64,000 nt of DNA. Origin: a virus. Lineage: Duplodnaviria > Heunggongvirae > Uroviricota > Caudoviricetes. The position numbers and the translations under genes are program-made. Below, piece by piece: positions 17,802 to 64,000 of the stretch. The notes under the pieces are model-generated. The model was not told the DNA's origin and did no database searches. It saw only the letters and a program-made list of their open reading frames with translations. Where the stretch lies: the IMG/VR virus record IMGVR_UViG_3300033553_000816; one strand, written 5' to 3'. Numbering within the stretch: the first letter of the stretch is position 1; every line of letters starts with the position of its first letter.

Positions 17802-17933
17802 TAGTAGTTTCTCTTCACAGCTGGTTGTCCTCTATAATTTGCGAGCATCTTAATATTATGCTATGATTCTTATGGTAGTAATAAGAGCTTACTGCCATAA
17901 GTAAGTTTAATCTAACACAAAAAGGGACGTTTG

Positions 17934-18395: not shown

Positions 18396-18454
18396 GTAAG
18401 TTTTACGTTATTAGAGAAATTTATCTATAGGACATAAACACGGGAGGTCAGTAT

Positions 18455-18976: not shown

Positions 18977-18980
18977 GACT

Positions 18981-20514: not shown

Positions 20515-20919
20515 TTAACCCTGATTGCGAATATATTCGATCACATTCTTCTCGGAAACATCACCAATGGTTGAGCAGAAGTAGCCGTTAGTCCATAATA
20601 TTTGTTTGTTTTTCCAATAGAAGTTTTGTAGATGCGCCGCTTCACGTTCCCATATGTAATGTGTGGTGAGTTGCTTCATCCTACGTACTACTTGCTCAAT
20701 GGAGAGAGTAGGTTTGAATGTAATAAGTAAGTGGATGTGGTCTTTATCTGTGTTCATTTCAATTATTTTAAAATCAGATTTTCCTTCAGCGACTCTGAAA
20801 GCATCCAGAACAACCTGCTCAATACCTATGAGTGCTTTTTTGCGGTATTTCGTTGAGAAGATAATATGGTAACGTAAACTTGTTTTCGCATGGGCGATAG
20901 ATTTATATTCATGAGTCAT
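20515..20919 (-). CDS. tnpA: IS200/IS605 family transposase TnpA (Y1 HuH)
   Basis: 134 aa, MTHEYKSIAHAKTSLRYHIIFSTKYRKK...HIHLLI. The HuH motif and size are typical of IS200-like TnpA. Confidence 0.85.
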   Translation of the reverse strand: MTHEYKSIAHAKTSLRYHIIFSTKYRKKALIGIEQVVLDAFRVAEGKSDFKIIEMNTDKDHIHLLITFKPTLSIEQVVRRMKQLTTHYIWEREAAHLQNFYWKNKQILWTNGYFCSTIGDVSEKNVIEYIRNQG

Positions 20920-20973
20920 GTGTCATCACCGTTTTCTACCGATATAGTTAACTAGCATATCGGACAAGGGGCG

Positions 20974-22206
20974 GTGTTAACTATGGGTAATAAAAATGCT
21001 CGTATTGCTGCTACTATGCGCGCTACACAAGTGCGCCGCCAGTCCCAATCTTGTCGTGTTTTTCAATTAAAGATCCAATCGAACTCTTTGAATCAGCAAC
21101 AGCAAGTGGCGTTGAAAATGCTTTTTGTGGAAGCTAAATGGTTATATAATCATGCCCTATCCCAAGGTATCACTAAATATGTGCCTGGTAAAACCGTGGA
21201 AGTGAGAAATAAAGAAGGCAAGTTCGAGACCCGCGATCTTACTGTTATTGGTTCACAGATGAAGCAATCTGTCCTCGCAAACATGCATTCAAGTCTCCGT
21301 GGCCTCGCTTCACACAAAAAAGCTGGTAGGCGAGTTGGTTCGCTCAAATATATTTCCCAATACACTTCAGTTGATTTGAAACAATATGGGACCACATATC
21401 GCATCAACAAGAACCGTGTGCGTATCCAAAACATCCCAGGTTGGGTAAAAACACGTGGTTTACACCAATTAGAAGGTTGGGAACTCGCAAACGCTAAACT
21501 TATGAAGAAACCAGATGGTTACTATTTACATGTGACAGCTTTCAAAAACAAAAATGACATCCCAAATACTTTCATACCAGGTACAAAGATAGGGCTAGAT
21601 ATGGGATTAACTACTCACATCACATTGAGTGATGGGACAAAGATTTCCGCAACAGTTGGAGAAACTGACCGTTTAAAACGCTTACAGAAGAAACTCAGTA
21701 AGCAAATTAAAGGGTCAAACAATTATTTGCGGACGCGAACGCTACTACAGCGGGAGCAGCAGAAAAACACCAACCGAAGAAACGATAAAGCCAACAAGGT
21801 AGTGCATGACATCCTCTTAAACGAGCGAATATATATGCAAGATGAAAACCTTATCAGCTGGCGCAAAACCTTCGGCGGCACAAAACAACACGGGTCCATT
21901 CTTGGTCGTGTGAAAAACAAACTCATCAACCATGACAGAGTAACAGTGTTACGAAAAAACTCACCAACCACAAAAATGTGCGAGTGTGGACGTAAAAACA
22001 CTCATTCTTTAAAAGAACGCACCTACTCATGTGCTTGTGGTTATACATTAGACCGTGACATACATGCGGCTCGAAACATGGTGAGGTTATCAATACCTGT
22101 GGAACGCAGGGAATCAACGCTTGTGGAGAACGAGTCAGACTGGTTAGCGCTCAGCGCGAAACAGCGTCGTTCATTGAAACAAGAAGCGTCTAGTTCTTTA
22201 GACTAG
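20974..22206 (+). CDS. tnpB: TnpB (OrfB) RNA-guided endonuclease-family protein
   Basis: 410 aa. RuvC-I IGLDMGL, C-terminal zinc finger CECGRKNTHSLKERTYSCACGYTLDRDIHAARNM (CxxC...CxxC plus RuvC-III). Confidence 0.85.
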   Translation: MLTMGNKNARIAATMRATQVRRQSQSCRVFQLKIQSNSLNQQQQVALKMLFVEAKWLYNHALSQGITKYVPGKTVEVRNKEGKFETRDLTVIGSQMKQSVLANMHSSLRGLASHKKAGRRVGSLKYISQYTSVDLKQYGTTYRINKNRVRIQNIPGWVKTRGLHQLEGWELANAKLMKKPDGYYLHVTAFKNKNDIPNTFIPGTKIGLDMGLTTHITLSDGTKISATVGETDRLKRLQKKLSKQIKGSNNYLRTRTLLQREQQKNTNRRNDKANKVVHDILLNERIYMQDENLISWRKTFGGTKQHGSILGRVKNKLINHDRVTVLRKNSPTTKMCECGRKNTHSLKERTYSCACGYTLDRDIHAARNMVRLSIPVERRESTLVENESDWLALSAKQRRSLKQEASSSLD

Positions 22207-22265
22207 ACGTAGTTCACTGAACGTGCTATCATATATTGTAGGACTAGAGTGAGGTGAAACTGCTG

Positions 22266-22877
22266 ATGGTTTTTATAGCTAAGACCGCTGATGTGGATAG
22301 TCGCGCTCGCATAGAAGAAGATGCGCGAGTTGAGGGGTACGCTACTATTCTTGTCGGAACTGTTCTTGAGGGCTCAGCTGTTGTTAAAGATGACGCTGAG
22401 GTTAGTTGGGTTGCTATGTCTGGTTCAGCTAGAGTCGAAGGTTCCAGTAAAATAGATGGAGGGACTGTTGTGGGCTCCGCACGTGTGAGCGGCAGCGCAA
22501 TCGTTATTTACTCCGATTTACGAGACTCAATTATTATTGAAGGTAAAGCTTCAGCTATTACCTCTGAAATGAGTGGTAATGCGCGGGTTAGCGGTAACGC
22601 TCGAATTGAAAATACTTCTGTGAGAAATTCCTCTGAAATTTATGGTGACGCTGAGCTGAACAACATCGAAGTTAACGACAGCTCACGCATTTTCGGTAAC
22701 GCCCGACTGGTGAGCGTGGTGGACTATGTTTACCTTAAGGGTAATTGTAAGTTCGGCGGTAACGCTAATTTCGATAATCTATTTAATTTTGAGGATTTTG
22801 TAGCGAAGTATGGCGCAGATAAAGTTAGTCGTTACAAATATGGTTTCGTTCTTACTGATGTTTGGGATATGGGGTAA
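22266..22877 (+). CDS. Family A beta-helix-repeat protein
   Basis: GAGGTGA RBS then ATG at 22266 giving MVFIAKTADV...NCKFGGNANFDNLFNFEDFVAKYG...LTDVWDMG. Confidence 0.8.
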   Translation: MVFIAKTADVDSRARIEEDARVEGYATILVGTVLEGSAVVKDDAEVSWVAMSGSARVEGSSKIDGGTVVGSARVSGSAIVIYSDLRDSIIIEGKASAITSEMSGNARVSGNARIENTSVRNSSEIYGDAELNNIEVNDSSRIFGNARLVSVVDYVYLKGNCKFGGNANFDNLFNFEDFVAKYGADKVSRYKYGFVLTDVWDMG

Positions 22878-22881
22878 AGAT

Positions 22882-23452
22882 ATGGTTTCTGTTGCTGACA
22901 CAGCTACCGTGGATACCACAAGTGTATTGAGTGGTTTAGCGCGAGTTGAGGATTATGCTAAAGTCTCAGAAAGTCATGTGGTGCAATTCGCTGTTGCTCG
23001 CGGTTCAGCTTCAGTCAAAAACTCCTCCCTGCGAGGCCATGCTGTGGTCTCCGGCTCATGCTCCCTTGAAGGTTCATCCATCCGAGGGGGGAGCCACTGT
23101 TGAGGGCGCAGCTGTTCTTTATTATGTGATCATGACAGATGAAGCGTATGCTGGTGAAAAGTGTACTGTTCGTAAATCTACTTTAAGGGGTGAAGCTAGG
23201 GTGTATGGCCAGGCTTACATATCTGATATAAAAGTTTATAACAACTGTCATATTTTCGGTAAAGCAAACTTACGTAATCATTTAGTTTCTGGTTTTAATA
23301 TCTCCTTAAGGGGTGAATGTAAGTTCGGAGGGGCAGCTAACTTCGAAGGGTTGAAAACTTTTGGTGACTTCATAAAGAAGTACGGTTCAGATAAAGTGCA
23401 TGTCGTAGATACCCAGAGAGTTGTTTTGACTGACGTTTGGGATATGGGGTAA
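22882..23452 (+). pseudogene. Family A member split by a +1 frameshift in a G6 homopolymer (23086-23091)
   Basis: ATG at 22882 giving MVSVADTATV...EGSSIRGGSHC* (stop at 23103). The C-terminal part continues in the +1 frame (...GGATVEGAAV...ECKFGGAANFEGLKTFGDFIKKYG...LTDVWDMG). Removing one G restores a contiguous protein. Confidence 0.6.
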
Positions 23453-23454
23453 AA

Positions 23455-24207
23455 ATGGGTTACGGCGGTACGTTCGATAATGAAGGTAACTTATTTACTG
23501 ACAGTATCGTGAAAACAGCGCATGTTGATGATAGTTGTTTCATGTCGGACTCTAAAGTCCTGGATAACGCAACGGTTAAAGGTGCCGTAAGGGTGGAGAA
23601 GTCTAATTTACGAGATAACACTGTTGTTTCCGGCAGAGCCCTAATCAAAATTTCTACGCTAACCGGGGCCACTCAAGTCTCAGGTGATTGTTTAGTGGAA
23701 GAATCTTTCTTACGTAACTATTCGAAAGTTGAAGATAAAGCACAGGTCATTCAGTCTTCTTTGTTCAGCGATGTTTCTGTTTCCGGTAACTCTCAGGTAA
23801 CTAACTCTGAGCTGCTGGGTTCTAATGTATTCGTTAAAGATAACGCTAAAGTAATGATGAGTTCCTCATACGGGAATAACGTTTCCATTTCAGATTCCGC
23901 TGTAGTTTCCCAGTGTGTTATTAGCGAAAGTTATGTTAAAATTTATGGTTCAGCGGAGCTTCACAGAGTAAATGTTAAAGGGGTTTGTCATATTTTTGGT
24001 AACGCTGTGGTGTCGCTAAATATAGGTAAAGACACCTATATATCCTTAGTGGGTGACTGTAAGTTCGGTGGGGGCGCTCGGTTAGATTTATTCACCACTG
24101 TTGAAGAGATCATTGAACGTTACGGTAAAGAAAAAGTTAAAACGTCAGAAGAGGGTAGAAGTAAAACTTTGGTAGTGACTTTAACAGATGTTTGGGATAT
24201 GGGGTAA
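23455..24207 (+). CDS. Family A beta-helix-repeat protein (long variant)
   Basis: ATG at 23455 giving MGYGGTFDNEGNLFTDSIVKTAHV...DCKFGGGARLDLFTTVEEIIERYG...LTDVWDMG. Confidence 0.75.
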   Translation: MGYGGTFDNEGNLFTDSIVKTAHVDDSCFMSDSKVLDNATVKGAVRVEKSNLRDNTVVSGRALIKISTLTGATQVSGDCLVEESFLRNYSKVEDKAQVIQSSLFSDVSVSGNSQVTNSELLGSNVFVKDNAKVMMSSSYGNNVSISDSAVVSQCVISESYVKIYGSAELHRVNVKGVCHIFGNAVVSLNIGKDTYISLVGDCKFGGGARLDLFTTVEEIIERYGKEKVKTSEEGRSKTLVVTLTDVWDMG

Positions 24208-24209
24208 AC

Positions 24210-24851
24210 ATGGCTTACATAGCAGATACCGCTTGTGTTGATGATATGACAACTTTACATGGTGATAAAATTCGTGTTGAAGATTATGCGCGTTTAGAGA
24301 GCTGTAATGTAGAAGGTTCCGTAGTTGTTGAAGACCACGCTCATCTGGTTGGCGTTAAACTCCAGCAGCGCGCTTATGTCTCAGAGCGAACTACGGTTGT
24401 TCGGGGTGTGATATTAGGTGAAGCTAAGGTTCGTGGTTATTCTCGCATCAAGGACTGTATTATCGCAGATGAAGCTACAGTTGAAGGTAGCTCTGTTTTG
24501 GAGAACAGTAGCGTTGAGGGGTTTTCTCGCGTATCTGGTAATGCCAAAGTAACGGGTTCTACTGTTGACGGGAATGTACATATTTTTGAGAACGCTACAG
24601 TATTGAATATAAGTGTTTTTGGTGACGCACATATTTTCGGGAAAGCAAAATTAGAATGCCCTAAAATATTATTAGGTAGGTTCGATAGCCTACAGTTCCG
24701 GGTATCTATTAGAGGAGGTAAGTTCAGTGGTAACGCTAACTTTGATGGCCTCAAAACGCAAACAGATTTTGTTAACAAATACGGTAAAGATAAGGTAACT
24801 ATAAGCGATCAGGGTAACGTAACGTTAACTGACGTATGGGACATAGGATGA
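24210..24851 (+). CDS. Family A beta-helix-repeat protein
   Basis: ATG at 24210 giving MAYIADTACV...KFSGNANFDGLKTQTDFVNKYG...LTDVWDIG. Confidence 0.8.
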   Translation: MAYIADTACVDDMTTLHGDKIRVEDYARLESCNVEGSVVVEDHAHLVGVKLQQRAYVSERTTVVRGVILGEAKVRGYSRIKDCIIADEATVEGSSVLENSSVEGFSRVSGNAKVTGSTVDGNVHIFENATVLNISVFGDAHIFGKAKLECPKILLGRFDSLQFRVSIRGGKFSGNANFDGLKTQTDFVNKYGKDKVTISDQGNVTLTDVWDIG

Positions 24852-24933
24852 TGCTTTCAACCGGTTTAACTCACCGTAGTTCGTTAGAGCATACTATACC
24901 CTTATTACATAACACCAAGGAAGGTACAATGCA

Positions 24934-25620
24934 ATGGCTTTTGTAACCAGCTCCCCTCTAATCAACTCGGAATTCAAAGTTGAATTAGTTGAACATGGTA
25001 AGGAAACGTATGTAGGTCCCGACGCTAAGGTGGTTGGAACTAACTTATTCGGTAAAGCCCGCGTTGAGGACAGCGCTTGGGTTTTTGATTCAGAAATTTT
25101 CGATAATGCTGTTATCAAAGAAGACGCTGTTGCTGAAAAATCTATGCTTCACGACTCTGTTATCATTTCAGGGTGGGCCGAGTTATCTTTAGTCGAGGCG
25201 ACAGGGTTTGTAAAAGTTAACGGGAACGCTAAAATCATCAAATCCCATCTTTGGAATAACGCACAGGTAGAAGACTACGCTTTAGTTAAATCGTCTATCA
25301 TACAAGGCAACGCACATTTGAGTGGAAAATCAAAAATTATACACGGTGGGGTTAGTGGTAACGGGAGGATCTACGATCAAGGTACCGCGAATGCTGTGAT
25401 TGTTACTGATGACAGCTGTGTTTTCGGGCATGCTAATCTTGAAGGTAACATTATTGCCGGAAAACAAGTTGTTTTAACTGGTAACTGTAAGTTCGGCGGG
25501 ACAGCTTCTTTCGAGGGGATAGCGAACCTGGACGATTTTATCTACAAATACGGTAAAGATCATGTTGAGATGGTAAAGAACAATATTTTCCTCAAAGACG
25601 TGTGGGACATGGGCTCTTAA
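24934..25620 (+). CDS. Family A beta-helix-repeat protein
   Basis: MAFVTSSPLI...NCKFGGTASFEGIANLDDFIYKYG...LKDVWDMGS. Confidence 0.75.
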   Translation: MAFVTSSPLINSEFKVELVEHGKETYVGPDAKVVGTNLFGKARVEDSAWVFDSEIFDNAVIKEDAVAEKSMLHDSVIISGWAELSLVEATGFVKVNGNAKIIKSHLWNNAQVEDYALVKSSIIQGNAHLSGKSKIIHGGVSGNGRIYDQGTANAVIVTDDSCVFGHANLEGNIIAGKQVVLTGNCKFGGTASFEGIANLDDFIYKYGKDHVEMVKNNIFLKDVWDMGS

Positions 25621-25702
25621 CCAATAAAGGCCACCTTCAAAAGTTGCTTCTGCTTGAATGTCATGATATAATTATAAGATATATATTATTTTAGGAGTAA
25701 AC

Positions 25703-26041
25703 GTGACTGATAGTTCTGGATTACATAGGCAGCAAGCCCTGACGGAGATAAGTGAAGTGATTTATAATGCTTCAGATAACGACGAGGGGACTCACAACGT
25801 GAAGCTAAGCGAAGCTCGGGTATATGCTCACCATGTCCTTGATGCCGGTTACAGGAAACCCTCTCCTCATGTTGTTAACAGTATAGGTGAACTAAAAGAC
25901 TATATGACTATTCTCCCCCACGGTTCGATGCGGCCCCTCTGGTTTTATCGAGGTGAACTTTTTCTTCCCGGTGTGTATGAAGCTGTTCCCGCTGGTCGAA
26001 CAACTTTCCCAGCGACAGTTCTCACTGACGGTAGCCGTTAA
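25703..26041 (+). CDS. Hypothetical protein
   Basis: 112-aa ORF with a GTG start and a GGAG RBS just upstream. No family A/B motifs. Confidence 0.4.
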   Translation: MTDSSGLHRQQALTEISEVIYNASDNDEGTHNVKLSEARVYAHHVLDAGYRKPSPHVVNSIGELKDYMTILPHGSMRPLWFYRGELFLPGVYEAVPAGRTTFPATVLTDGSR

Positions 26042-26078
26042 GACCAGCTTCTATCTGAAAAACATGAGGTAGTTTCAT

Positions 26079-26552
26079 ATGGATTATTCAAAAGACCTTT
26101 CCGGTTCACCCCAGGGCGATAAAAACCAGATTATAGGTAAAGACGCTCAGGTTGAGTATTCCGCTAAGATTGAGAGATCCATAATAAGAGGGTGCGCTCA
26201 TATTGGAGGTAAAGCACAAATTGAATCTTCTTTAATCACCGATAACTGTTCTGTTCTGGATGCGGCTATTGTGATTGAATCTGAGTTGCGTGGCTTCTCA
26301 AAAGTTTATGATAAAGCTTTCATATATGGCATATGGATGGAAGATAACTCATGTGTTTTCGGGGATGCTTATTTGGTAGCTGCTTTCACCGATGAAATGT
26401 TCATTACGCTTAAAGGTGGTTGTAAGTTCGGCGGGTCAGCTACTTTCGAAGGGTTAAATACTTTTGATGACTTCGTTAGGAAGTATGGTGAAGATAAAGT
26501 TGCCCTAGTCGAAGGTGAAATTGTTTTAACTGATGTGTGGGATATGGGGTAA
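26079..26552 (+). CDS. Family A beta-helix-repeat protein
   Basis: GAGGT RBS. MDYSKDL...GCKFGGSATFEGLNTFDDFVRKYG...LTDVWDMG. Confidence 0.8.
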   Translation: MDYSKDLSGSPQGDKNQIIGKDAQVEYSAKIERSIIRGCAHIGGKAQIESSLITDNCSVLDAAIVIESELRGFSKVYDKAFIYGIWMEDNSCVFGDAYLVAAFTDEMFITLKGGCKFGGSATFEGLNTFDDFVRKYGEDKVALVEGEIVLTDVWDMG

Positions 26553-26560
26553 CTAGAAAT

Positions 26561-27157
26561 ATGGTAAATACATTATACACTCCCGCTGAATTTATAGCTG
26601 AAATAGAAGAGAAAACAGCTGACGGCGATATAGGCCATGAGGACCGCAAAATACTTCTACGAGACTTAAGTGAAATTGTAAGCAACATCAACGACAACCC
26701 GGACCCCGCATGTACCCCTCTGAAAATAAGAAACTACGGCTCTAATTTACTGATGACTAGCAGAAACTATGTAAGAGAGTACTCTATTGTAGGTGGCAGC
26801 ACCACGTTAAGGTATGAAACTTGGTATGATCAAGGTCTGTACCACAGGGGGAATGATAAGCCCGCTAAAATTGCTCGCAATGAGAATGGTGTCATCATAG
26901 AAGAAGAGTACTGGGTTCGAGGTAAATTACATCGTGATGGCGATAAACCAGCTCGGGTTGAATATTACAGCAGCAACAAAAACGTGAAGATGGAGTCGTG
27001 GTTCTTTACTGGTGCCCAACGAAGAGATGGTGACAAGCCTACTACTGTACATTATTATGAGGAAGGTAATATAGAAACCTTAAGATGGAATTACTATCGG
27101 GATGGTAAAAAACCACTCCGTTTAGATTATGACATGAATGGCAAGATCGTATCTTAA
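26561..27157 (+). CDS. Family B MORN-like repeat protein (only plus-strand copy)
   Basis: ATG at 26561 giving MVNTLYTPAEFIAEIEEKTADGDIGHEDRKILLRDLSEIVSNINDN, followed by repeats ...HRGNDKPAKIARNENG...EEEYWVRGKLHRDGDKPARVEYYSSN...RRDGDKPTTVHYYEEG.... Confidence 0.8.
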   Translation: MVNTLYTPAEFIAEIEEKTADGDIGHEDRKILLRDLSEIVSNINDNPDPACTPLKIRNYGSNLLMTSRNYVREYSIVGGSTTLRYETWYDQGLYHRGNDKPAKIARNENGVIIEEEYWVRGKLHRDGDKPARVEYYSSNKNVKMESWFFTGAQRRDGDKPTTVHYYEEGNIETLRWNYYRDGKKPLRLDYDMNGKIVS

Positions 27158-27282
27158 CTTATTTTTAAGACAGTCAGATGCTAAGAATTACTTAAATAAA
27201 TTTACCTTACCCAACGTCGATCTGTTTAAGTAATCTCTGTACGATATTCTTTGTGTATTTCAATACCAGGGATAAATAAACT

Positions 27283-27780
27283 ATGGCCAGGTTCACGGAG
27301 CATATCCTCATGGATGAGGGGGCTAGTTTATCTAACGACGCCCAAGTGTCCGCTATCTCCAGACTGCTTGACCATGCGCAGGTTAGTGGAACCGCTGTTA
27401 TTAAAGGGCTTTCCTGGTTAGAGGGAAGAGCCCATGTTTATGGAACGGCACTGCTTGATGGGGTTATTATGAGCGAGGATGCCACTATTGGGGATGATGC
27501 CTGTGTCACAGGGGGTAACTTTAGCGGTTACTCCCGCGTTTATGGGAACGCAACAACACAAAACGTCAGCGCTAAAGGTAACTCAAGTGTATTCGGTAAC
27601 GCTAGTTTATGTAGCGACTATATTAAAGTTCAGTTAGCTGGTGGCTGTAAATTCGGTGGTCACGCAACTTTTGATGACCTATTAGACATAGATGATTTCA
27701 TTAACAAATACGGCACAGGGAACATTGAGATTATAGGTCGTTCTTTAGTTATCTTAACTGACGTTTGGGACATGGGCTAA
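27283..27780 (+). CDS. Family A beta-helix-repeat protein
   Basis: MARFTEHILMDEGASL...GCKFGGHATFDDLLDIDDFINKYG...LTDVWDMG. Confidence 0.75.
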   Translation: MARFTEHILMDEGASLSNDAQVSAISRLLDHAQVSGTAVIKGLSWLEGRAHVYGTALLDGVIMSEDATIGDDACVTGGNFSGYSRVYGNATTQNVSAKGNSSVFGNASLCSDYIKVQLAGGCKFGGHATFDDLLDIDDFINKYGTGNIEIIGRSLVILTDVWDMG

Positions 27781-27781
27781 G

Positions 27782-28402
27782 ATGGCCAAAATCACGGGCG
27801 AGCACACCCCTAAAACTAACTTGGATATGTGGGCCATTTCACCTAACGCTAACGTTGATGTAGTAACGCGGCAGCATCTTAAAAATAAACAAGTATATAT
27901 TGGAGGTAACAGTCATTTAACTGTTGTTATGATAAATGGTGACGTGGAAATTGACGATGACGCTCGAATAAACGTTTCTTACCTTAACGATAACGTCAGA
28001 GTTAATGAGCAAGCAACTATTCACGGTTCTGTTTTATCGAACAGCTCGTATGTTCATGGTCAGGCAACTTTGTACAGTAGCCGCATCTGTGATTCTTCGG
28101 AAATTTTTGGTAACGCCATATTAAGAGACAGCGTAGTTACGGAAGAGGTTATCATCTACGGTAACGCTGACATAAGAAAAATCACCGTTTCAGGATGTTC
28201 GCATATTTTTGGGAAAGCTAAACTGATAAATATGTTATCCCGGAATTACAGTATAATCTTAGAGGGTAGTTGTAAATTTGGTGGCTGGGCAGACATAAGC
28301 ACTTTGACTACCTTTGAAAGCTTCGTTAAAAAATACGGTAAGGATAACGTTAGAGTAGAAACAAATAAAATTGTGTTAACTAATGTTTGGGATATGGGGT
28401 AA
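27782..28402 (+). CDS. Family A beta-helix-repeat protein
   Basis: MAKITGEHTPKTNL...SCKFGGWADISTLTTFESFVKKYG...LTNVWDMG. Confidence 0.75.
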   Translation: MAKITGEHTPKTNLDMWAISPNANVDVVTRQHLKNKQVYIGGNSHLTVVMINGDVEIDDDARINVSYLNDNVRVNEQATIHGSVLSNSSYVHGQATLYSSRICDSSEIFGNAILRDSVVTEEVIIYGNADIRKITVSGCSHIFGKAKLINMLSRNYSIILEGSCKFGGWADISTLTTFESFVKKYGKDNVRVETNKIVLTNVWDMG

Positions 28403-28450
28403 ACTGACAAAAGGGGCGCGCCCTTACTTCCACGACTGACATGTATTTAC

Positions 28451-28960
28451 TTATTGTTTTATAGGCCGGTAGTAGCTGTCCGGGAGTTTAGGGAAGTTCC
28501 CACCGCGAAGGTTACGTTCCGCGAACATTCTAATAACATCTGAACCCACTCCACGTTGGCCTTGGTTGATACGATTAGCGTCTCTTCTTATCAGCTCATC
28601 TATCTCCACTGGGAAGTCTTCGATACGGAGTTGTACTTTTCCTTTGAATTCTTTCGCTATGTCAACTAGCTGCTGTAGGGAATTTAGATTTAAGTTAGTG
28701 TCATCAACTACAACAGAAAACCCAGCCTTAAGAGCTTCGCGGATTTTCCCATGCTGTATTTTAGTTATGTTATCTTCCATTCGGGAAGCTTTGTCGCCAG
28801 TTCCAAACCAGTATGAGCCGTATGTTTCATATCGAAGGTTGTCTCTGTTGACTCGGGTTCGAGTTAAAGAGCTCTCAGATAGCCATTTCTTCGCCCAGGT
28901 GCTCTTACCGGACGCTGGAAGACCCCTAGTTAATACAAGAGTTTGTTGTTCGTTATTCAT
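28451..28960 (-). CDS. Polynucleotide 5'-kinase-like P-loop kinase (T4 Pnk kinase domain only, no phosphatase domain)
   Basis: LTRGLPASGKSTWAKKW (Walker A), NRDNLR, SVVVDDTNLN and RINQGQRGVGSDVIRMF match the T4 PseT/Pnk N-terminal kinase domain pattern (G.PGSGKSTWA; NRD..R; ISDTNLN; R.TKAVP.DVLR.M). Confidence 0.7.
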   Translation of the reverse strand: MNNEQQTLVLTRGLPASGKSTWAKKWLSESSLTRTRVNRDNLRYETYGSYWFGTGDKASRMEDNITKIQHGKIREALKAGFSVVVDDTNLNLNSLQQLVDIAKEFKGKVQLRIEDFPVEIDELIRRDANRINQGQRGVGSDVIRMFAERNLRGGNFPKLPDSYYRPIKQ

Positions 28961-29049
28961 ATTGCGTTACCTCACCGAGTTGTTTCCTACATGTTATATA
29001 AGTAATCCTAGCGGTTTCTATTTTTTTATGATACATTTAATCAGAAGAT

Positions 29050-29556
29050 ATGAGGTTTTATATGACATCGCCCGCAGGTAACCTTTTCCAAGACCGGTCT
29101 TATGCTGCGCCTGGAACTGAGATCTTCAACACCCAACTGTTCGTAGATGCACTTGTTAAAGACACGGCGAGCGTTTTTCGAAGTGAACTTTTCGGCGCTT
29201 GTGAAATTTCAGGTCATGCGCGGGTTGAGAATTCTTTCATCTCCGGTATAGCTAAAATCAAAGATGACGCTGAGATTTATGGTTGCGAAGTGGCTGAATG
29301 TGCCAAAATTTATGGTCAAGCTAAAGTCCGCGATATTAACGTTTCCGATAAAGTACATATTTTTGGAAGAGCTAAACTCTTCAACCGTTTACAGAAGAGC
29401 GCTATTTTCCTTAAAGGGGAATGTAAGTTCGGCGGGACCGTTAATTTCGATAATTTGTTAACCACTGAGGATTTTGTTGATAAATATGGAGCGGACAAAG
29501 CTATTTTAACTGCCGGGGGTATTGCCCTAACTGATGTTTGGGATATGGGAATTTGA
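29050..29556 (+). CDS. Family A beta-helix-repeat protein
   Basis: ECKFGGTVNFDNLLTTEDFVDKYG...LTDVWDMGI. An alternative start at ATG 29062 (MTSPAGN) is preceded by GAGGT. Confidence 0.75.
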   Translation: MRFYMTSPAGNLFQDRSYAAPGTEIFNTQLFVDALVKDTASVFRSELFGACEISGHARVENSFISGIAKIKDDAEIYGCEVAECAKIYGQAKVRDINVSDKVHIFGRAKLFNRLQKSAIFLKGECKFGGTVNFDNLLTTEDFVDKYGADKAILTAGGIALTDVWDMGI

Positions 29557-29570
29557 GGAGGGTTTAAATT

Positions 29571-30080
29571 ATGACAATATCTGATAGCGTAGAGATGGAC
29601 GGGATAAGTAGATGTGATGAAACGGCAACTGTTGATGGTAACGTTATTGTTGAAGCTAGCGATATCTTAGATAACGCACATGTTTATGGCAACGCTAAAC
29701 TCTCCGGTGCGTCCGTTAAAGGTAACGCACATGTTTGTGGGAATACTATTTTCACGTCAAGTAGAGCTGAAGATGACGCTCGCGTTTACGGCAACACAAA
29801 ATTAGTTGGTGTCGCAGTTTTAGAGAACGCACAAGTTTATGAAAACGCTGATTTGGTATCAATCATTATTGAAGGTAACTCACGGGTTTTCGGTAACGCA
29901 AAGTTAGAGAGTAAAAGTAGTAGTTTAATTATCGCGCTTAAAGGTTCCTGTAAGTTCGGCGGCACAGCCAGTTTCGACGGGTTGGACACGTATGATGATT
30001 TTGTTAATAAGTATGGGGAAGAGAACGTCCAAGAACGCTTCCGTGGCTTGAATCTGATTGACGTGTGGGATATGGGTTAA
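29571..30080 (+). CDS. Family A beta-helix-repeat protein
   Basis: MTISDSVEMD...SCKFGGTASFDGLDTYDDFVNKYG...LIDVWDMG. Confidence 0.8.
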   Translation: MTISDSVEMDGISRCDETATVDGNVIVEASDILDNAHVYGNAKLSGASVKGNAHVCGNTIFTSSRAEDDARVYGNTKLVGVAVLENAQVYENADLVSIIIEGNSRVFGNAKLESKSSSLIIALKGSCKFGGTASFDGLDTYDDFVNKYGEENVQERFRGLNLIDVWDMG

Positions 30081-32687: not shown

Positions 32688-33032
32688 ATGGAGACACTCG
32701 CTGTAGCTCCACTTTTCCTGCTTATATTAGCTCATTACGTAGCTGATTTCGGGCTTCAAACAGAGTTCATGGCAACCATGAAAGGTAAAGTACACACCGA
32801 CCCTCATGGTATTCATTCTCTACTGGGGCATTCCGCTATACATGGCGCTATGACCGTTGCTGCTTTAACAGTAGTTGGACTACCGTGGTTCATTCCTGCT
32901 TTACTTATTATCCTCGCCCACGGAACCATTGATTATTTCAAAAGTAACCACAACTCTTTCGGGGTCCACGTGGACCAAGCCCTCCATATGACTAGTATTG
33001 TAATGGTGTGGATGGTGGCCTTGAATTTGTAA
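32688..33032 (+). CDS. Small His-rich polytopic membrane protein (possibly DUF3307-like)
   Basis: 114 aa with 3-4 hydrophobic helices and conserved-looking HYVADFGLQ ... LAHGTIDY ... DQALH motifs. Confidence 0.45.
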   Translation: METLAVAPLFLLILAHYVADFGLQTEFMATMKGKVHTDPHGIHSLLGHSAIHGAMTVAALTVVGLPWFIPALLIILAHGTIDYFKSNHNSFGVHVDQALHMTSIVMVWMVALNL

Positions 33033-33129
33033 ACTTAGCATCACAATAGCTCGTTTTGTAGCTATTTAGATGTGAGTTTATTAGAACCGATATGTATCTC
33101 AGAAAATAAAAATCATTAATCACTTAATT

Positions 33130-33545
33130 GTGTAGCAACTTATTCCGATATTCGTAGTATAAAATGAAAATAGTATGATAGGATACTAATGAGATTAAGT
33201 GAATACGCCACCAAACATGGTATACAGTACCGTACAGCGTGGAACCCTGCCTACACCTCACAAGAATGTAGCAAGTGCGGCTGGTTATCCGAAACAAACC
33301 GCAAAACACAAACAAATTTCCAATGCACAAAATGTGCTTGGACTGGTCACGCGGACGTTAACGCGGCACGAAACATTTTGGGACGTTCCCAGAATGGTGC
33401 CGCATGGTTATATGTTAAACGTGATATTATCCGCGAGCGCCTGCTCGTGCGATACTCTGAGAAAAACACTCAGAGAACGCCTTCAACAGTAAGGCTAGCT
33501 GATACTCCCCGCTCACGCGGGAAAGTAGCCAGCTTAACTTAATTC
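33130..33545 (+). mobile_element. Miniature internally deleted IS607-family element (left end + right end only)
   Basis: 33130-33245 is about 85% identical to the left end and tnpA 5' region of the IS607-like element at 62929-63045 (GTGTAGCAACTTA...GATAGGATAC.AATGAGATTAAGTGAATACGCC). The embedded ORF fuses the first 19 TnpA codons to the last ~98 TnpB codons. Confidence 0.65.
33189..33542 (+). pseudogene. tnpA(N-terminus 19 aa)::tnpB(C-terminal Zn-finger/RuvC-III) fusion remnant
   Basis: MRLSEYATKHGIQYRTAWN, identical to the start of TnpA 62988. It joins to PAYTSQECSKCGWLSETNRKTQTNFQCTKCAWTGHADVNAARNILGRSQ, the TnpB C-terminal signature. Confidence 0.7.
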
Positions 33546-33555
33546 ATGAAATACC

Positions 33556-33834
33556 ATGAAAAAGGATACTGTTATGATGAGGATATTACCGGAGGTATTG
33601 AATAAAATGACAGAACTTAGATTAGTAGCTGAAAGCGAAGAATATGAGATGGTTCATAATCTTCAGGAGTTAGAGCAATTAAATCCTAACACCCCTTTAC
33701 TTACGGCGGCGGATGGCCTTTGCCACGCAGCAGATATTACTTATGACTTACGTAGGTCTGCAGACACTTTCAACCTGAATGTCTTTCCAGCTACTATTTT
33801 AGTTAAAAAGATCAGAGAAACACCGTCTAACTGA
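33556..33834 (+). CDS. Hypothetical protein
   Basis: 92-aa ORF. The start may be the internal MMRILPEV. Confidence 0.35.
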   Translation: MKKDTVMMRILPEVLNKMTELRLVAESEEYEMVHNLQELEQLNPNTPLLTAADGLCHAADITYDLRRSADTFNLNVFPATILVKKIRETPSN

Positions 33835-33856
33835 AAAGGATGAGGAGCCCCCGTTT

Positions 33857-34195
33857 ATGTCCTCTAATCATCATGATGCAGATGAGCTTTACAGTTACCG
33901 TATGGCTTATCATCTACATGCTATTCAGCTATGGGTTAATTCCGGGTTTCCTGTAGTTAAATCTTTAAGACACTCTGATGGTGAGTTATGTTTCGGCGGG
34001 GATGTCTTTATTGTTTCAGCTGAACTCCCCACCGGGCAGGTAACTAATCACTACAAATTAAAGCACTGGGATATGTTTAGTGTCCCGGAAGTGGAATTAG
34101 CTCCTGAATATGATGGGCATACACCACAAGTTGCACTTAAAAGGTTACTCGATGCGGCTGATAGTTTCAGCACAACACAAAATATGGGAGAATGA
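33857..34195 (+). CDS. Hypothetical protein
   Basis: 112-aa ORF with an RBS-like GGATGAGGAG upstream. Confidence 0.4.
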   Translation: MSSNHHDADELYSYRMAYHLHAIQLWVNSGFPVVKSLRHSDGELCFGGDVFIVSAELPTGQVTNHYKLKHWDMFSVPEVELAPEYDGHTPQVALKRLLDAADSFSTTQNMGE

Positions 34196-34651: not shown

Positions 34652-35263
34652 ATGGTTTACATTTCTGAGACGGCTTCTGTTGATACTTTCTCTACCCTAG
34701 AAGGAAAAGTAAAAGTTCTCGGTAAAGCTAAAATTATAAGCTCTATCTTAGAGGGGAACGTTCGCGTGACCCAGAATGCTTCAGTGAGAAGATCTAGCTT
34801 AACGGGTTCTTCTGTCGTGTCGGGTAACGCTAAAGTTGTTTCATCAGGCATCCACCATGAAGCTCAGGTTTCAGGTGACGCTGTTCTTGAAAGATCTTTT
34901 GTGGACGATAAAACTGTTGTTAAAGATAACGCCGTGGTCGCAGATTCTAATGTTGGAGAAGAAGCTCAGGTAAGAGGTCGAGCTAAAATTATGGACAGTA
35001 AAGTAGGTGGGATGGCGGACATATATGAAAACGCTGAGGTTACCGGAATTAATGTTCACGGGAAATCAAATATTTACGGTAATGCTCGTTTAATTTCCCC
35101 TTTAGCTTTTAAAATTATTTTAGCTGGGAGCTGTAAGTTCAGCGGGAAAGCGAACTTTGATGGTTTAACAACGCTTGAGGATTTTGTTGGTAAATACGGG
35201 GCAGATAAAGTTGATATGTACGATCATGTTATGACAATCACTGACGTTTGGGACATGGGGTAA
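34652..35263 (+). CDS. Family A beta-helix-repeat protein
   Basis: MVYISETASV...SCKFSGKANFDGLTTLEDFVGKYG...ITDVWDMG. Confidence 0.8.
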   Translation: MVYISETASVDTFSTLEGKVKVLGKAKIISSILEGNVRVTQNASVRRSSLTGSSVVSGNAKVVSSGIHHEAQVSGDAVLERSFVDDKTVVKDNAVVADSNVGEEAQVRGRAKIMDSKVGGMADIYENAEVTGINVHGKSNIYGNARLISPLAFKIILAGSCKFSGKANFDGLTTLEDFVGKYGADKVDMYDHVMTITDVWDMG

Positions 35264-35269
35264 GGGAAT

Positions 35270-35752
35270 ATGGCAGAAATAGCTGACACCGCTTTCGTGG
35301 CTGAAACCGCTTCGCTCAGAGATGAAGCTGTAGTCAGAGGCACCGCACGTGTTGAAGATAAAGCAATAATAATTAATGGCTCCGTTATTTGCGAGCAAGC
35401 GGTTATAAGTGGGAGCGCTACAGTCAGCTGGTCTGACATTATGGGGCAAGCTAAAGTTAGTGGGGACGCTAAAGTTTCGAGCTCTATCTTGAATGGGGCT
35501 TGTGAGATTTACGGGAACGCCAAATTAGATGGTCTTCATATTCGTGGCACGTCAAGTGTTTTTGGCGAAGCTAATTTACATAATTATACCCGCGCAAGAG
35601 TTGTTTTAGACGATAACTGTAAATTCGGTGGGACAGCTAATTTTGATGATCTAGAAACGTATGAGGATTTTGCTAAAAAATATGGTGAAAATAAAGTTGA
35701 AAGAGTGAGACAGTATGGTGTAATTTTAACTGACATTTGGGATATGGGATAA
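35270..35752 (+). CDS. Family A beta-helix-repeat protein (close paralog of 18981..19439)
   Basis: MAEIADTAFVAETASLRDEAVV...SWSDIMGQAKVSG...NCKFGGTANFDDLETYEDFAKKYGENKVERVRQYGVILTDIWDMG. Confidence 0.8.
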   Translation: MAEIADTAFVAETASLRDEAVVRGTARVEDKAIIINGSVICEQAVISGSATVSWSDIMGQAKVSGDAKVSSSILNGACEIYGNAKLDGLHIRGTSSVFGEANLHNYTRARVVLDDNCKFGGTANFDDLETYEDFAKKYGENKVERVRQYGVILTDIWDMG

Positions 35753-46448: not shown

Positions 46449-47066
46449 TTAGCCATAATATTCGCTAACGTTATTTCCGTTCTCATCATAAGATATAGCG
46501 GTGGGGCCTCCGTCTGTTCTTCCTGACCCACCTGTTTTGACAGCCCATTCCTCTAGCGTTTTGCGCCCTCTCTCATCATAATGGGTGTAAGCCGGTAGAT
46601 TGCCTGTACGATGTTTAACTCCGTCCTCCCGGAATTCTTCCACGGCGAGTTTACCGTTACGATGCCAAGCTCTTACAGTAGGGTTACCTCCAGCTCGATG
46701 TATTTTATTATCTTTATACCAGGTGTGAGCTTCGAGTGGCCCCTCATCGTAATAAGCAATCGAAGCTGGGTGATCTCCATAACTGTTTATCATTCCTTCT
46801 TTAAGCCATATTCTGACAAAAAGCATTCCGGCATAATTGTAATCTCGGGCGTAGTTACGGGTGGATATTTTTACGTGGTGTGTGTAAGGGTCTCTTTTAA
46901 TTTCCACGGGCCCGTTATCGAGGTCGCCAGCTATACTCATATCATCTAAAATTTCAGACATGTCTTTTAATAGTATCTGCCAATAGGTCTCTAAATTAGC
47001 ATCTTCTTGGATGGCTCGTTCTAAAGTCTCTATGAAACTTGCTGCGTTAATTCTGTTGTTAGACAT
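46449..47066 (-). CDS. Family B MORN-like repeat protein
   Basis: N-terminal domain ...AASFIETLERAIQEDANLETYWQILLKDMSEILDDM, then repeats ...HRAGGNPTVRAWHRNGKL..EE. Confidence 0.75.
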   Translation of the reverse strand: MSNNRINAASFIETLERAIQEDANLETYWQILLKDMSEILDDMSIAGDLDNGPVEIKRDPYTHHVKISTRNYARDYNYAGMLFVRIWLKEGMINSYGDHPASIAYYDEGPLEAHTWYKDNKIHRAGGNPTVRAWHRNGKLAVEEFREDGVKHRTGNLPAYTHYDERGRKTLEEWAVKTGGSGRTDGGPTAISYDENGNNVSEYYG

Positions 47067-47068
47067 CT

Positions 47069-47923: not shown

Positions 47924-47925
47924 TT

Positions 47926-62782: not shown

Positions 62783-62987
62783 TTCCAGTTCCCTTAGTTT
62801 CTTAAATAACTGCTGTTTATCTTAGCATAAAATTCTCTGATAAACAATAGCGGTCAATTTAACCTCTTTAGAACTTATTATTGTACCACTGGTCAAAGTG
62901 GTCTTTTTGGATTTTTATTAGTGGTTTAGTGTAGCAACTTATGCCGATATCCGTGGTATAATATGAAAATAATACGATAGGATACCA

Positions 62988-63560
62988 ATGAGATTAAGTG
63001 AATACGCCACAAAACATGGTATACAGTACCGCACTGCGTGGAATCGTTTCAAGGAGAATAAAATCCCTGGCGCTTATCAGGATGATGGTGGAAGGATTGT
63101 TGTTCCTGATCCTGATAAACCTAAAATGGATATTAAGAAAGTAGCTATATACGCTCGGGCGAGTAACACTCAACGGCGCGGTGATCTTGATGCTCAAGCG
63201 AAACGCCTAACGGATTGGGCTATTTCGAATGGTTTTGAGGTAACCCATATTGTTAAAGAAGTCGGGTCAGGGGTGAGCGATAAGCGAAAGAAACTACATG
63301 CGTTACTGGCTAAAGACGATTATGGCACTCTACTTGTTGAACATAAAGACAGGCTCACTCGTTTTGGCTTCGAATGGTTCGTTTCCCTGCTTGCTGCTCA
63401 GGGTAAAGAAATACAGGTGTTACGTCCACCTGAGAATGAGGAAGCTGATATCATTGCGGATCTCACAGCGATTGTTTATTCTTTCACCGCGAGGTTGTAC
63501 GGGCAGAGACGCGCTTCACGGGCCCAGGAAGCTGTCCAAGAGGTCTTAGATGGCAACTAG
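62988..63560 (+). CDS. tnpA: IS607-family serine recombinase transposase TnpA (MerR-like HTH + resolvase domain)
   Basis: MRLSEYATKHGIQYRTAWNRFKENKIPGAYQDDGGRIVVPD (HTH), then VAIYARASNTQRRGDLDAQ...GTLLVEHKDRLTRFGFEW (resolvase catalytic core). Confidence 0.8.
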   Translation: MRLSEYATKHGIQYRTAWNRFKENKIPGAYQDDGGRIVVPDPDKPKMDIKKVAIYARASNTQRRGDLDAQAKRLTDWAISNGFEVTHIVKEVGSGVSDKRKKLHALLAKDDYGTLLVEHKDRLTRFGFEWFVSLLAAQGKEIQVLRPPENEEADIIADLTAIVYSFTARLYGQRRASRAQEAVQEVLDGN

Positions 63561-64000
63561 AGCATACAAGGTTACTTCGTTAGCTAACTCAGGTAAGGAC
63601 GCGCAGGTTTTTGCGCTGCTTACCCCATGGAGAACAGCTTTGAATGAAGTGACAGACTACGCTTACCGCCATTTTACTTTACAAGGAAAACCAGTACCTA
63701 AGAGGTTTTCTTTACGCACAATGAACCTTGAAACACCTTTATCCGCTAGACAAATAAATTCTGTGTGGGTCCAAGCGTTCGGAGGTTTAAGTTCCTGGGA
63801 AACTCGTATACAAGCCCAATATAAAGCTTATGTGGCACACTCAAATTTGGATGAATTCACAAAAATCACTCTCTACAGAATAAACAAGTACCGCGCATGG
63901 TTCAACACTTCACTTGCCTTACCCATGTGGGCGGATGAGATTGGTGAGTTAACTCATGTGAAAGCCGGGGAGAAAATCGAGTGGGATGTGTCTGCTGACA
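63550..64000 (+). CDS. tnpB: TnpB (IS607-associated), N-terminal part; continues beyond window
   Basis: ATG at 63550 overlaps the tnpA 3' end. MATRAYKVTSLANSGKDAQVFALLTPWRTALNEVTDYAYRHF... is a typical TnpB N-terminus. Not in track because it is edge-truncated. Confidence 0.7.
   Translation, partial: MATRAYKVTSLANSGKDAQVFALLTPWRTALNEVTDYAYRHFTLQGKPVPKRFSLRTMNLETPLSARQINSVWVQAFGGLSSWETRIQAQYKAYVAHSNLDEFTKITLYRINKYRAWFNTSLALPMWADEIGELTHVKAGEKIEWDVSAD

What the first reader, a model, noticed from the sequence alone, without database searches (positions are those of the whole stretch)
33130..33545. Miniature IS607 derivative retaining only both ends: tnpA start fused to tnpB C-terminus, a possible stand-alone omega-RNA locus
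The 33130-33245 segment reproduces the left end and first 19 codons of the IS607-type tnpA at 62929-63045 at about 85% identity. It then jumps directly into the last ~98 codons of a TnpB (PAYTSQECSKCGW...CTKCAW.GHADVNAARNI). This is the structure expected from an internal deletion that keeps both element ends. In IS200/605/607 elements the TnpB guide RNA (omega RNA or right-end RNA) is transcribed from the 3' end of tnpB and the right end, the very part retained here. This remnant could therefore still supply a guide RNA, and a homing target, for the full-length TnpB at 63550 acting in trans, analogous to MITE-like derivatives. It also documents IS607 activity inside this element.
Basis: partly seen in the sequence, partly recalled or inferred. 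Interest (0 to 1): 0.6.

Follow-up and report, generated by a model that had tools for sequence, protein, structure and literature searches.

The report
Miniature IS607 remnant keeping guide RNA
This is a 443-base stripped-down copy of an IS607-type jumping gene in a large phage-like genome; it has lost both its enzymes but keeps both ends and an intact guide-RNA fold, an expected kind of non-autonomous derivative rather than a new system.

Summary
Window 33130-33244 matches the left end plus the first tnpA codons of the IS607 copy at 62929 at 91% (not 85%). It runs in frame into the last 98 codons of a TnpB.

The element ends at about 33572 (...GGATACTGT), not 33545.

The 3' end of the resident full-length copy lies beyond the window and could not be retrieved. 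Two proxies stand in for it:
- A tnpA-less tnpB element elsewhere on the same 202,758-bp contig matches 33243-33572 at 90.7%.
- An intact IS607 relative (TnpA 84% identical) carries homologues of both halves.

Window 33421-33572 is a strongly structured RNA (z = -5.5). Across six relatives, 21 of 49 pairs show compensatory changes. The omega-RNA scaffold is therefore complete in the mini-element.

Two independent assemblies span both flank junctions, so it is not a chimera.

It is not a recent deletion of the resident copy. The left ends differ by 9%, and every difference in the tnpA codons is synonymous.

Mobilisation by TnpA and loading by TnpB in trans are inferred, not shown. Only one copy was seen and no empty site was found.

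Verdict: a natural omega-RNA-only, non-autonomous IS607 derivative. It is a new member of a known kind, of modest interest.

The parts
33130..33188 (+). Left end (non-coding, 59 nt). It starts with GTGT and carries a -10-like TATAAA (33158-33163) and an AGGA ribosome-binding site (33180-33183).
   Evidence: Homology to four other left ends begins exactly here, each with an unrelated 5' flank: IS607-1 at 62929, ENA variant L095, tnpB-only element in L012, and L096. IS607-1 has TGGTATAAT at the matching place (sequence). The consensus scan did not call a full sigma-70 promoter on the + strand.
33189..33245 (+). First 19 codons of tnpA. The amino acids are identical to TnpA of IS607-1.
   Evidence: The 4 nucleotide differences to IS607-1 and the 5 differences to the ENA variant are all synonymous.
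33243..33245 (+). Deletion junction. The AAC codon is shared by tnpA (N19) and tnpB (N of I-N-P-A-Y-T), giving 2-3 nt of microhomology.
   Evidence: Alignment A4 shows tnpA ...GCGTGGAA|TCG, tnpB-2 ...CAATAAA|CCCTGCC and mini ...GCGTGGAA|CCCTGCC. Homology to tnpB-2 starts at 33243.
33246..33542 (+). Last 98 codons of a TnpB plus the stop codon. It holds the zinc finger CxxC...CxxC and the RuvC-III motif HADVNAARNI. RuvC-I and RuvC-II are absent.
   Evidence: Pfam PF07282 3.2e-16. 89% amino-acid identity to the TnpB-2 C-terminus. Alignment A5 places the retained part after the RuvC-II glutamate.
33189..33542 (+). In-frame fusion ORF of 117 aa (TnpA 1-19 joined to TnpB C-terminal 98 aa). It is probably a by-product and cannot be a nuclease.
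   Evidence: The exact protein (P0002) is on record only on the 202,758-bp source contig.
33421..33572 (+). Predicted omega-RNA (reRNA) scaffold of about 150 nt. It has five stem-loops plus a closing helix and overlaps the tnpB 3' end and the right end.
   Evidence: The 197-nt stretch 33380-33576 that contains the scaffold has a minimum free energy of -69.3 kcal/mol against -45.2 +/- 4.4 for shuffles, z = -5.5. Of 21 substitutions against the tnpB-2 copy, 0 of 62 pairs are broken and 5 pairs are doubly compensated. Covariance model R1 hits the 3' ends of related IS607 tnpB genes (L096 57.6 bits; L097 25; L094 21). 21 of 49 pairs show changes on both sides, and 93% of cells are paired against 27-40% in slid controls.
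33543..33572 (+). Non-coding terminal 30 nt of the right end, finishing in GGATACTGT.
   Evidence: Homology to the tnpB-2 element ends at ...GATACTGT. The same terminal motif sits at the matching place in L094 and L096. The sister lineage L097/L099 ends ...GATACTCT.
33573..33592 (+). Predicted guide portion of the omega-RNA (flanking DNA just past the right end). Its exact start and length are uncertain.
   Evidence: Inferred by analogy with ISXfa1 (144-nt scaffold plus about 17-nt guide beyond the boundary; paper 10.1101/2023.08.09.552727). The flanks of the different copies diverge from this point on.
62929..64000 (+). Resident autonomous IS607 copy (IS607-1). Left end 62929-62987, tnpA 62988-63560, tnpB-1 from 63550 running off the window. 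It is a candidate supplier of TnpA and TnpB in trans.
   Evidence: NCBIfam transpos_IS607 160.6 bits. Logan contig L001 extends tnpB-1 to 274 aa, ending in the RuvC-I motif.

Best explanation
Window 33130-33572 is a 443-bp non-autonomous derivative of an IS607-family insertion sequence. An internal deletion with 2-3 nt of microhomology joined tnpA codon 19 to the last 98 codons of tnpB. This removed the serine-recombinase catalytic domain and the RuvC-I and RuvC-II parts of TnpB.

Shown:
- Both transposon ends are present.
- The full omega-RNA scaffold (about 33421-33572) is intact.
- The element sits in an intergenic spacer, in the same orientation as its neighbours.
- The same genome holds an autonomous copy (TnpA + TnpB-1) and a tnpB-only copy (TnpB-2).

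Inferred:
- Transcription from the left-end tnpA promoter, or read-through from upstream genes, runs across the fusion ORF into the scaffold.
- TnpB made by a resident copy processes and binds this RNA. Its guide is the roughly 16-20 nt of flank after 33572.
- If TnpA (from IS607-1) excises the mini-element, the TnpB-RNA complex would cut the vacated site and restore the element by recombination, as shown for IS605 and IS607 TnpB.
- The 117-aa fusion protein is a by-product.
For: Left end: 91% identity to IS607-1. The boundary is fixed by five copies with unrelated 5' flanks.

Right half: 90.7% over 332 nt to the tnpB-2 3' end and right end on the same contig. The homology starts at the junction and ends at ...GATACTGT. 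The intact relative L096 (TnpA 84% identical) has homologues of both halves.

RNA: z = -5.5. No pair is broken by the 21 substitutions against tnpB-2, and 5 pairs are compensated. With the mini-only fold as reference, P is about 0.015. 21 of 49 pairs covary across six sequences.

Enzyme suppliers: TnpA meets the NCBIfam IS607 equivalog. TnpB-2 has the D/E/D and CxxC motifs and meets guided_TnpB.

Assembly: both flank junctions are present in two independent Logan assemblies.

Literature: 60-bp ends suffice for TnpA(Ser) excision of a laboratory mini-IS, and IS607 TnpB cuts the donor joint (10.1101/2023.11.20.567912). PATEs carry omega-RNAs that need TnpB in trans (PMC10055086).
Against: - No expression data exist.
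- No sigma-70 promoter on the + strand passed the simple scan, and no terminator was found.
- Only one copy was found in the window and in L012.
- No empty site and no further copies were found in public collections, so mobility is undemonstrated.
- The compensatory changes arose in the parental lineages. They prove the RNA is real in the family, not that the mini copy is under selection.
- The TAM is unknown. The mini's 5' flank (AATT before GTGT) differs from the TTA/TTAT/GTT seen at the other copies.
- Compatibility of TnpB-1 with this scaffold is untested. The TnpB-1 N-terminal 274 aa are only 71% identical to TnpB-2, and its own 3' end was not seen.
Confidence: 0.7

Rival explanations
1. 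It is an inert relic. The anatomy is the same (a deletion derivative of an IS607), but it is neither transcribed into a working guide RNA nor mobilised. The intact RNA fold and open frame only reflect how recent the deletion is.
For: A single copy was found. No empty site or other copies were found anywhere. No strong promoter or terminator was called. All tnpA-codon differences are synonymous, so the divergence predates the deletion and there has been little time for decay.
Against: Every functional module needed in cis is intact: the left end, the right end and 62/62 scaffold pairs. Two potential TnpB suppliers and a TnpA supplier are in the same genome. The left end keeps the -10-like box and the ribosome-binding site (sequence).
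Confidence: 0.25
2. It arose from recombination between two separate family members, for example between the left part of one IS607 and the tnpB 3' part of a neighbouring or tnpB-only element, rather than from a deletion inside one element.
For: The family is mosaic. The mini left end is closest to IS607-1 (91%) and its right half is 91% to tnpB-2. tnpB-1 and tnpB-2 are only about 73-78% identical in their 5' parts, yet become identical for at least 30 nt at nt 793.
Against: The junction has only 2-3 nt of microhomology at non-homologous positions. That is typical of illegitimate deletion, not homologous exchange. The unseen IS607-1 3' end may be just as similar to the mini.
Confidence: 0.1
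3. The 117-aa fusion protein is the functional product, for example a zinc-finger regulator or a TnpB antagonist.
For: The fusion is in frame, keeps the start codon and ribosome-binding site, and the ORF is uninterrupted.
Against: In-frame joining has a prior of one in three. Only 19 residues of the TnpA DNA-binding region remain. RuvC-I and RuvC-II are missing. The exact protein is on record on one contig only. Non-synonymous changes cluster in the tail, where RNA stems are kept at the expense of the protein.
Confidence: 0.03
4. It is an assembly chimera created by repeats shared between IS607 copies.
For: Exact 28-36-nt runs are shared with tnpB-2. Logan contigs break at 33272 and 33534.
Against: Logan contigs from two runs (SRR13628065 and SRR13628066) each run from unique 5' flank through the distinctive left end and across the junction to 33272. 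Others run from 33534 into unique 3' flank, all at 100% identity. The break at 33272 is exactly what a 32-nt repeat with tnpB-2 predicts for k = 31.
Confidence: 0.02

Closest known systems
IS607-family insertion sequences (H. pylori IS607, ISXfa1, C. botulinum IStron)
   Same: Serine-recombinase TnpA that meets NCBIfam transpos_IS607. tnpB lies downstream and overlaps tnpA. There are no terminal inverted repeats or target duplications. The guide RNA overlaps the tnpB 3' end and the right end, with a scaffold of about 150 nt as in ISXfa1 (144 nt).
   Different: The item at 33130-33572 has neither a working tnpA nor a working tnpB. The ends carry GT (GTGT...CTGT) rather than the GG core of IS607, ISXfa1 and Cbo. 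The TnpB is distant from characterised ones (NCBIfam IS607_TnpB 34 bits against a cut-off of 350). No Rfam family, RAGATH-18 included, matches the RNA.
PATEs: protein-less IS200/IS605 derivatives that still encode omega-RNA (Meers et al., PMC10055086)
   Same: A non-autonomous mini-element that keeps both ends and a guide RNA. It would depend on TnpA and TnpB made elsewhere in the genome.
   Different: PATEs belong to the Y1-transposase, single-strand hairpin-end family. This item derives from a serine-recombinase, double-strand IS607. PATEs are usually multi-copy, whereas only one copy was seen here.
Laboratory mini-IS of the C. botulinum IS607 IStron (Zedaveinyte et al., 10.1101/2023.11.20.567912)
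   Same: Left end plus right end without tnpA or tnpB. It is excised by TnpA(Ser) supplied in trans, and 60-bp ends suffice.
   Different: That construct was engineered. This one is natural, with 116 nt from the left and 330 nt from the right, and it carries an in-frame gene-fragment fusion.
tnpB-only non-autonomous IS605/IS607 elements (IS1341-like)
   Same: They are degenerate family members that rely on TnpA in trans. One such element (left end + tnpB-2 + right end, no tnpA) is on the same contig (L012 about 9803-11401).
   Different: Those keep a full TnpB. The mini-element keeps only the part of tnpB that overlaps the RNA.

Membership tests
IS607 family (the lineage the mini-element derives from) | Serine-recombinase TnpA with an N-terminal DNA-binding region | tested here: met
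   Window 62988-63557 scores 160.6 bits on NCBIfam NF033518 transpos_IS607 (cut-off 110). Pfam Resolvase 2.8e-15. The mini keeps codons 1-19 only.
IS607 family (the lineage the mini-element derives from) | tnpB (RuvC + zinc finger) downstream of tnpA in the same orientation | tested here: met
   The tnpB-1 ATG at 63550 overlaps the tnpA stop at 63558-63560. TnpB-2 scores 100.5 bits on NCBIfam guided_TnpB (cut-off 100), and the D/E/D and CxxC columns are conserved. The relatives L096 and L097 have the same layout.
IS607 family (the lineage the mini-element derives from) | No terminal inverted repeats and no target-site duplication | tested here: met
   The repeat finder reports no terminal inverted repeat. 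The flanks are ...CACTTAATT and TATGATGAGG..., with no duplication.
IS607 family (the lineage the mini-element derives from) | The same core dinucleotide at both junctions (GG in characterised members) | tested here: inconclusive
   The ends read GTGT... and ...CTGT. The sister lineage reads GTCT... and ...CTCT, so the third base of the left end and the second-to-last base of the right end covary. This is consistent with a GT or CT core, but no empty site was found to prove it.
IS607 family (the lineage the mini-element derives from) | Guide RNA (omega/reRNA) overlapping the tnpB 3' end and right end | tested here: met
   Structure and covariation. Expression could not be tested.
Non-autonomous (MITE/PATE-like) derivative of that IS | Both ends homologous to those of autonomous copies | tested here: met
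   Left end 91% to IS607-1. Right end 90.7% to the tnpB-2 element, with a covariance-model hit to the intact L096. The right end of IS607-1 itself was not seen.
Non-autonomous (MITE/PATE-like) derivative of that IS | No functional transposase or nuclease of its own | tested here: met
   Only TnpA residues 1-19 and the TnpB C-terminal 98 aa remain.
Non-autonomous (MITE/PATE-like) derivative of that IS | Evidence of mobilisation (several copies, or filled and empty sites) | tested here: not met
   There is one copy in the window and none in L012. No empty site or other copy was found in the viral, metagenome or genome collections. Only about 85 kb of the 203-kb genome could be searched.
PATE in the strict sense (IS200/IS605) | Y1-transposase family ends (sub-terminal hairpins) | tested here: not met
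   The ends are those of a serine-recombinase IS607. The Y1 element in the window (20515-22206) is unrelated.
RAGATH-18-type IS607 reRNA (Rfam) | Match to the Rfam covariance model | tested here: not met
   A cmscan of 32900-33900 at E-value up to 10 returned only chance hits.

The most novel reading that the evidence does not exclude
The mini-element is a live omega-RNA-only satellite in a jumbo-phage genome. It is kept in place, or spread, by TnpB and TnpA borrowed from sibling copies. Alternatively, its guide has been put to use: the 18 nt just past the right end (33573-33590) match a second site in the same genome at 16 of 18 positions (12493-12510; 0.04 expected by chance). That would point to RNA-guided action on another phage locus.
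Probability: 0.1. Interest if true: 0.6.

Novelty: new member of a known kind. Interest (0 to 1): 0.3.

Why it matters
It is a clean natural example of something so far described mainly for IS200/IS605 (PATEs) and built artificially for IS607. The transposon is reduced to its two ends plus the guide RNA, and it sits in the same genome as an autonomous copy and a tnpB-only copy.

That three-stage series, in a 203-kb phage-like genome, gives a compact test bed for three questions:
- Does IS607 TnpB serve guide RNAs in trans?
- Are these short ends enough for TnpA?
- What are the core dinucleotide and TAM of this GT-ended lineage?

It does not change current understanding of TnpB or IS607 biology.

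Tried and rejected
Attempts to obtain the 3' end of IS607-1:
- Look-ups with window proteins returned only short Logan contigs.
- The TnpB-1 N-terminus found no full-length protein.
- The source contig is served only outside the window region.

Searches for close relatives or empty sites:
- Megablast against INPHARED phages found nothing.
- IMG/VR scans with TnpB-1, Band_7 and WDGH neighbours found nothing close.
- The JGI metagenome scan with TnpB-2 found no confirmed relative.
- Exact-pattern scans for the right end, left end and empty site found nothing.
- GTDB relatives of the TnpB are at most 41% identical and gave no significant covariance-model match.

Other checks:
- The Rfam scan gave only chance hits.
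- The promoter and terminator scan gave nothing on the + strand.
- An 8-nt repeat, ACTTAATT (5' flank 33122-33129 and inside the right end 33537-33544), was considered as a target duplication or nested insertion. It was rejected because homology to other right ends continues 28 nt past it.
- Assembly chimera was rejected.
- A disrupted paralogue as the explanation for the 12493 match was rejected: the reading frames differ and there is no flank similarity.

Full report
OBSERVATION

Window 33130-33244 aligns without gaps to 62929-63043 at 91.3% (blastn). An ungapped count gives 105/116. Homology starts sharply at GTGTAGCAAC, and the upstream flanks are unrelated.

The ORF at 33189-33542 encodes 117 aa. 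Residues 1-19 (MRLSEYATKHGIQYRTAWN) are identical to the start of the ORF at 62988-63560. The remaining 98 residues are a TnpB C-terminus (Pfam PF07282, 3.2e-16).

The ORF at 62988 is an IS607 transposase by NCBIfam's curated cut-off (NF033518, 160.6 bits against 110). It is followed by an overlapping tnpB start at 63550 that runs off the window.

WHERE THE WINDOW COMES FROM

The exact fusion protein and the exact TnpA are on record on one 202,758-bp contig, JAFMNT010905086.1 of metagenome assembly GCA_023268315.1. Identical DNA occurs in Logan assemblies of SRR13628065 and SRR13628066.

Gene content is phage-like (PHROG hits; L012 genes). Nothing close is in INPHARED or IMG/VR.

THE RIGHT HALF

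The 3' end of the copy at 62929 (IS607-1) lies beyond the window. I could not obtain it. Two substitutes were found.

First, the same contig carries a second TnpB, which I call tnpB-2 (P0001/P0122). It is 486 aa counted from the ATG at L012 9911. It has a recognisable left end (GTGTGGCGACTAGTGCC, about 70% to the IS607-1 left end) and no tnpA. Its 3' end matches window 33243-33572 at 90.7% over 332 nt. In the alignment, homology begins exactly at the junction (AACCCTGCC...). It ends at ...GATACTGT, 30 nt past the stop codon, after which the flanks differ.

Second, an intact IS607 from another metagenome (L096) has a TnpA 84% identical to the window's and a 492-aa TnpB. It has homologues of both halves of the mini-element: 74% over 117 nt at the left, and 76% over 216 nt at the right. 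It also gives a 57.6-bit covariance-model hit at its right end.

The two halves therefore belong to the two ends of one IS607 lineage. The element spans 33130 to about 33572, not 33545.

BOUNDARIES

Five copies with unrelated 5' flanks all begin with GTGT: IS607-1, the mini-element, ENA variant L095, the tnpB-2 element and L096. Their right ends finish with GATACTGT.

A sister lineage (L097-L099, TnpA 68% identical) begins with GTCT and ends with GATACTCT. The third base of the left end and the second-to-last base of the right end therefore change together. That is what a shared crossover dinucleotide (GT here, CT there) would give for a serine recombinase. It is GG in the characterised IS607, ISXfa1 and Cbo elements (papers). 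This is an inference, because no empty site was found.

THE RNA

The 197-nt stretch 33380-33576 folds at -69.3 kcal/mol, against -45.2 +/- 4.4 for shuffles (z = -5.5).

The mini and tnpB-2 copies differ at 21 positions in this stretch. None breaks any of the 62 consensus pairs, and five pairs are doubly compensated. One example is the hairpin CCCGC-TCAC-GCGGG against AGCGT-GTGA-ACGCT, which changes the encoded protein tail but keeps the stem.

The consensus structure was itself derived from the pair of sequences, which biases that test. I therefore repeated it with the mini-only fold. Four of 50 pairs break, and two of those involve non-homologous flank bases. P is about 0.015 against random substitutions.

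A covariance model built from the two copies finds only this one site in the window. It hits the 3' ends of tnpB genes in L096, L097/L098, L099 and L094. On that six-sequence alignment, 21 of 49 pairs have changes on both sides. 93% of cells are paired, against 27-40% when partners are slid. The alignment is fitted to the model, so these counts lean towards the structure.

The scaffold is about 150 nt (33421-33572), similar to the 144 nt measured for ISXfa1. It lies 176 nt downstream of the deletion junction, so it is complete. No Rfam family matches it.

ORIGIN

The junction reads as follows:
- tnpA: ...GCGTGGAA|TCG
- tnpB-2: ...CAATAAA|CCCTGCC
- mini: ...GCGTGGAA|CCCTGCC

This is a 2-3 nt microhomology, as expected for an illegitimate deletion.

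The mini-element is not a fresh deletion of IS607-1. The left ends differ at 11 of 116 positions. All four differences inside the 19 tnpA codons are synonymous, as are all five differences to the ENA variant. The divergence therefore accumulated while tnpA was still functional, in a distinct parent.

The family looks mosaic. tnpB-1 and tnpB-2 are 73-78% identical over their 5' parts, yet become identical for at least 30 nt at nt 793. Both Logan contigs stop exactly there.

NOT AN ARTEFACT

Logan contigs from two runs go from unique 5' flank through the left end and across the junction to 33272. Others go from 33534 into unique 3' flank. All are at 100% identity.

The stop at 33272 is exactly what the 32-nt exact repeat with tnpB-2 (33243-33274) predicts for k = 31. 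The start at 33534 implies another copy identical over 33533-33563. This is not tnpB-2, which differs at 33535. The right end of IS607-1 is the obvious candidate, but that is an inference.

MECHANISM

Shown:
- Both ends are intact.
- The scaffold is intact.
- A TnpA gene and an intact TnpB gene (tnpB-2), plus the 5' part of a second (tnpB-1), are in the same genome.

From the literature:
- TnpA(Ser) excises mini-elements with 60-bp ends in trans, and IS607 TnpB cuts the donor joint.
- TnpB processes its own mRNA 3' end into omega-RNA (title and abstract of PMC10278001).
- PATEs carry omega-RNAs that need TnpB in trans.

Inferred:
- The left end keeps a -10-like TATAAA. IS607-1 has TGGTATAAT at the same place. 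It also keeps the ribosome-binding site and the ATG, so transcripts should run through the short ORF into the scaffold.
- TnpB-2 or TnpB-1 would load this RNA, with the flank after 33572 serving as guide.
- After TnpA-mediated excision, the vacated site would be cut and refilled.

Against:
- There are no expression data.
- No promoter passed the simple scan.
- Only a single copy was seen.
- The TAM is unknown. The mini's 5' flank (AATT) differs from the TTA/TTAT/GTT of the other copies.

COMPARISON AND NOVELTY

It works like a PATE (the IS200/IS605 omega-RNA-only derivatives) and like the engineered Cbo mini-IS. By descent it is an IS607-family element. It is not a PATE in the strict sense, because its ends are not of the Y1 type.

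My two literature searches turned up no description of a natural omega-RNA-only IS607 derivative. That is not proof of absence. The kind is fully expected from current models.

Rating: new member of a known kind, interest about 0.3.

Noticed in passing
window 20515-22206: A separate IS200/IS605-type element. A Y1 TnpA (20515-20919, minus strand, Pfam Y1_Tnp 3e-32) sits divergently next to a 410-aa TnpB (20974-22206). That TnpB is only 26% identical to the IS607-type TnpB.
   Followed up: partly
L012 about 9803-11401 (contig JAFMNT010905086.1, 119-121 kb): A tnpB-only member of the same IS607 lineage: left-end-like GTGTGGCGAC..., a 486-aa TnpB-2 with intact D/E/D and zinc finger, the right end, and no tnpA. 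The genome therefore holds an autonomous form, a tnpB-only form and an RNA-only form.
   Followed up: yes
window 12493-12510: TACGATGAGGCTATTACC matches the predicted guide of the mini-element (33573-33590) at 16 of 18 positions. 0.04 matches are expected by chance. It lies inside ORF 12157-12633, in a different reading frame, with no flank similarity. It remains unexplained and may be coincidence.
   Followed up: partly
L001 4343-4372 (tnpB-1 nt 793-822) and L012 10703-10732: tnpB-1 and tnpB-2 are about 73-78% identical upstream, but become identical for at least 30 nt at the RuvC-I motif. Both Logan contigs end there. This suggests a mosaic or gene-conversion boundary between copies.
   Followed up: partly
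window 33122-33129 and 33537-33544: The 8 nt just before the left end (ACTTAATT) recur inside the right end, 28 nt before its tip. The flank TCACTTAAT is also the reverse complement of tnpA codons 2-5 (33194-33202). This is probably chance in AT-rich DNA.
   Followed up: partly
window 12157-19439, 22254-30080, 34652-35752, 46449-60853: Long arrays of paralogous 150-230-aa ORFs with weak beta-solenoid, left-handed beta-helix or bactofilin-like hits fill much of the window.
   Followed up: no
L095 (ENA ERZ27253054, 1383-bp contig): A variant of the same IS607 with a different 5' flank. The nearly identical TnpA belongs to the same 90% cluster, and the left end matches IS607-1 at 104 of 116 positions. 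The lineage therefore occurs in at least two independent datasets.
   Followed up: partly
L094 2758-4041: A group II intron-type reverse transcriptase (RVT_1 + GIIM) lies about 1.5 kb from the related TnpB of P0007.
   Followed up: no
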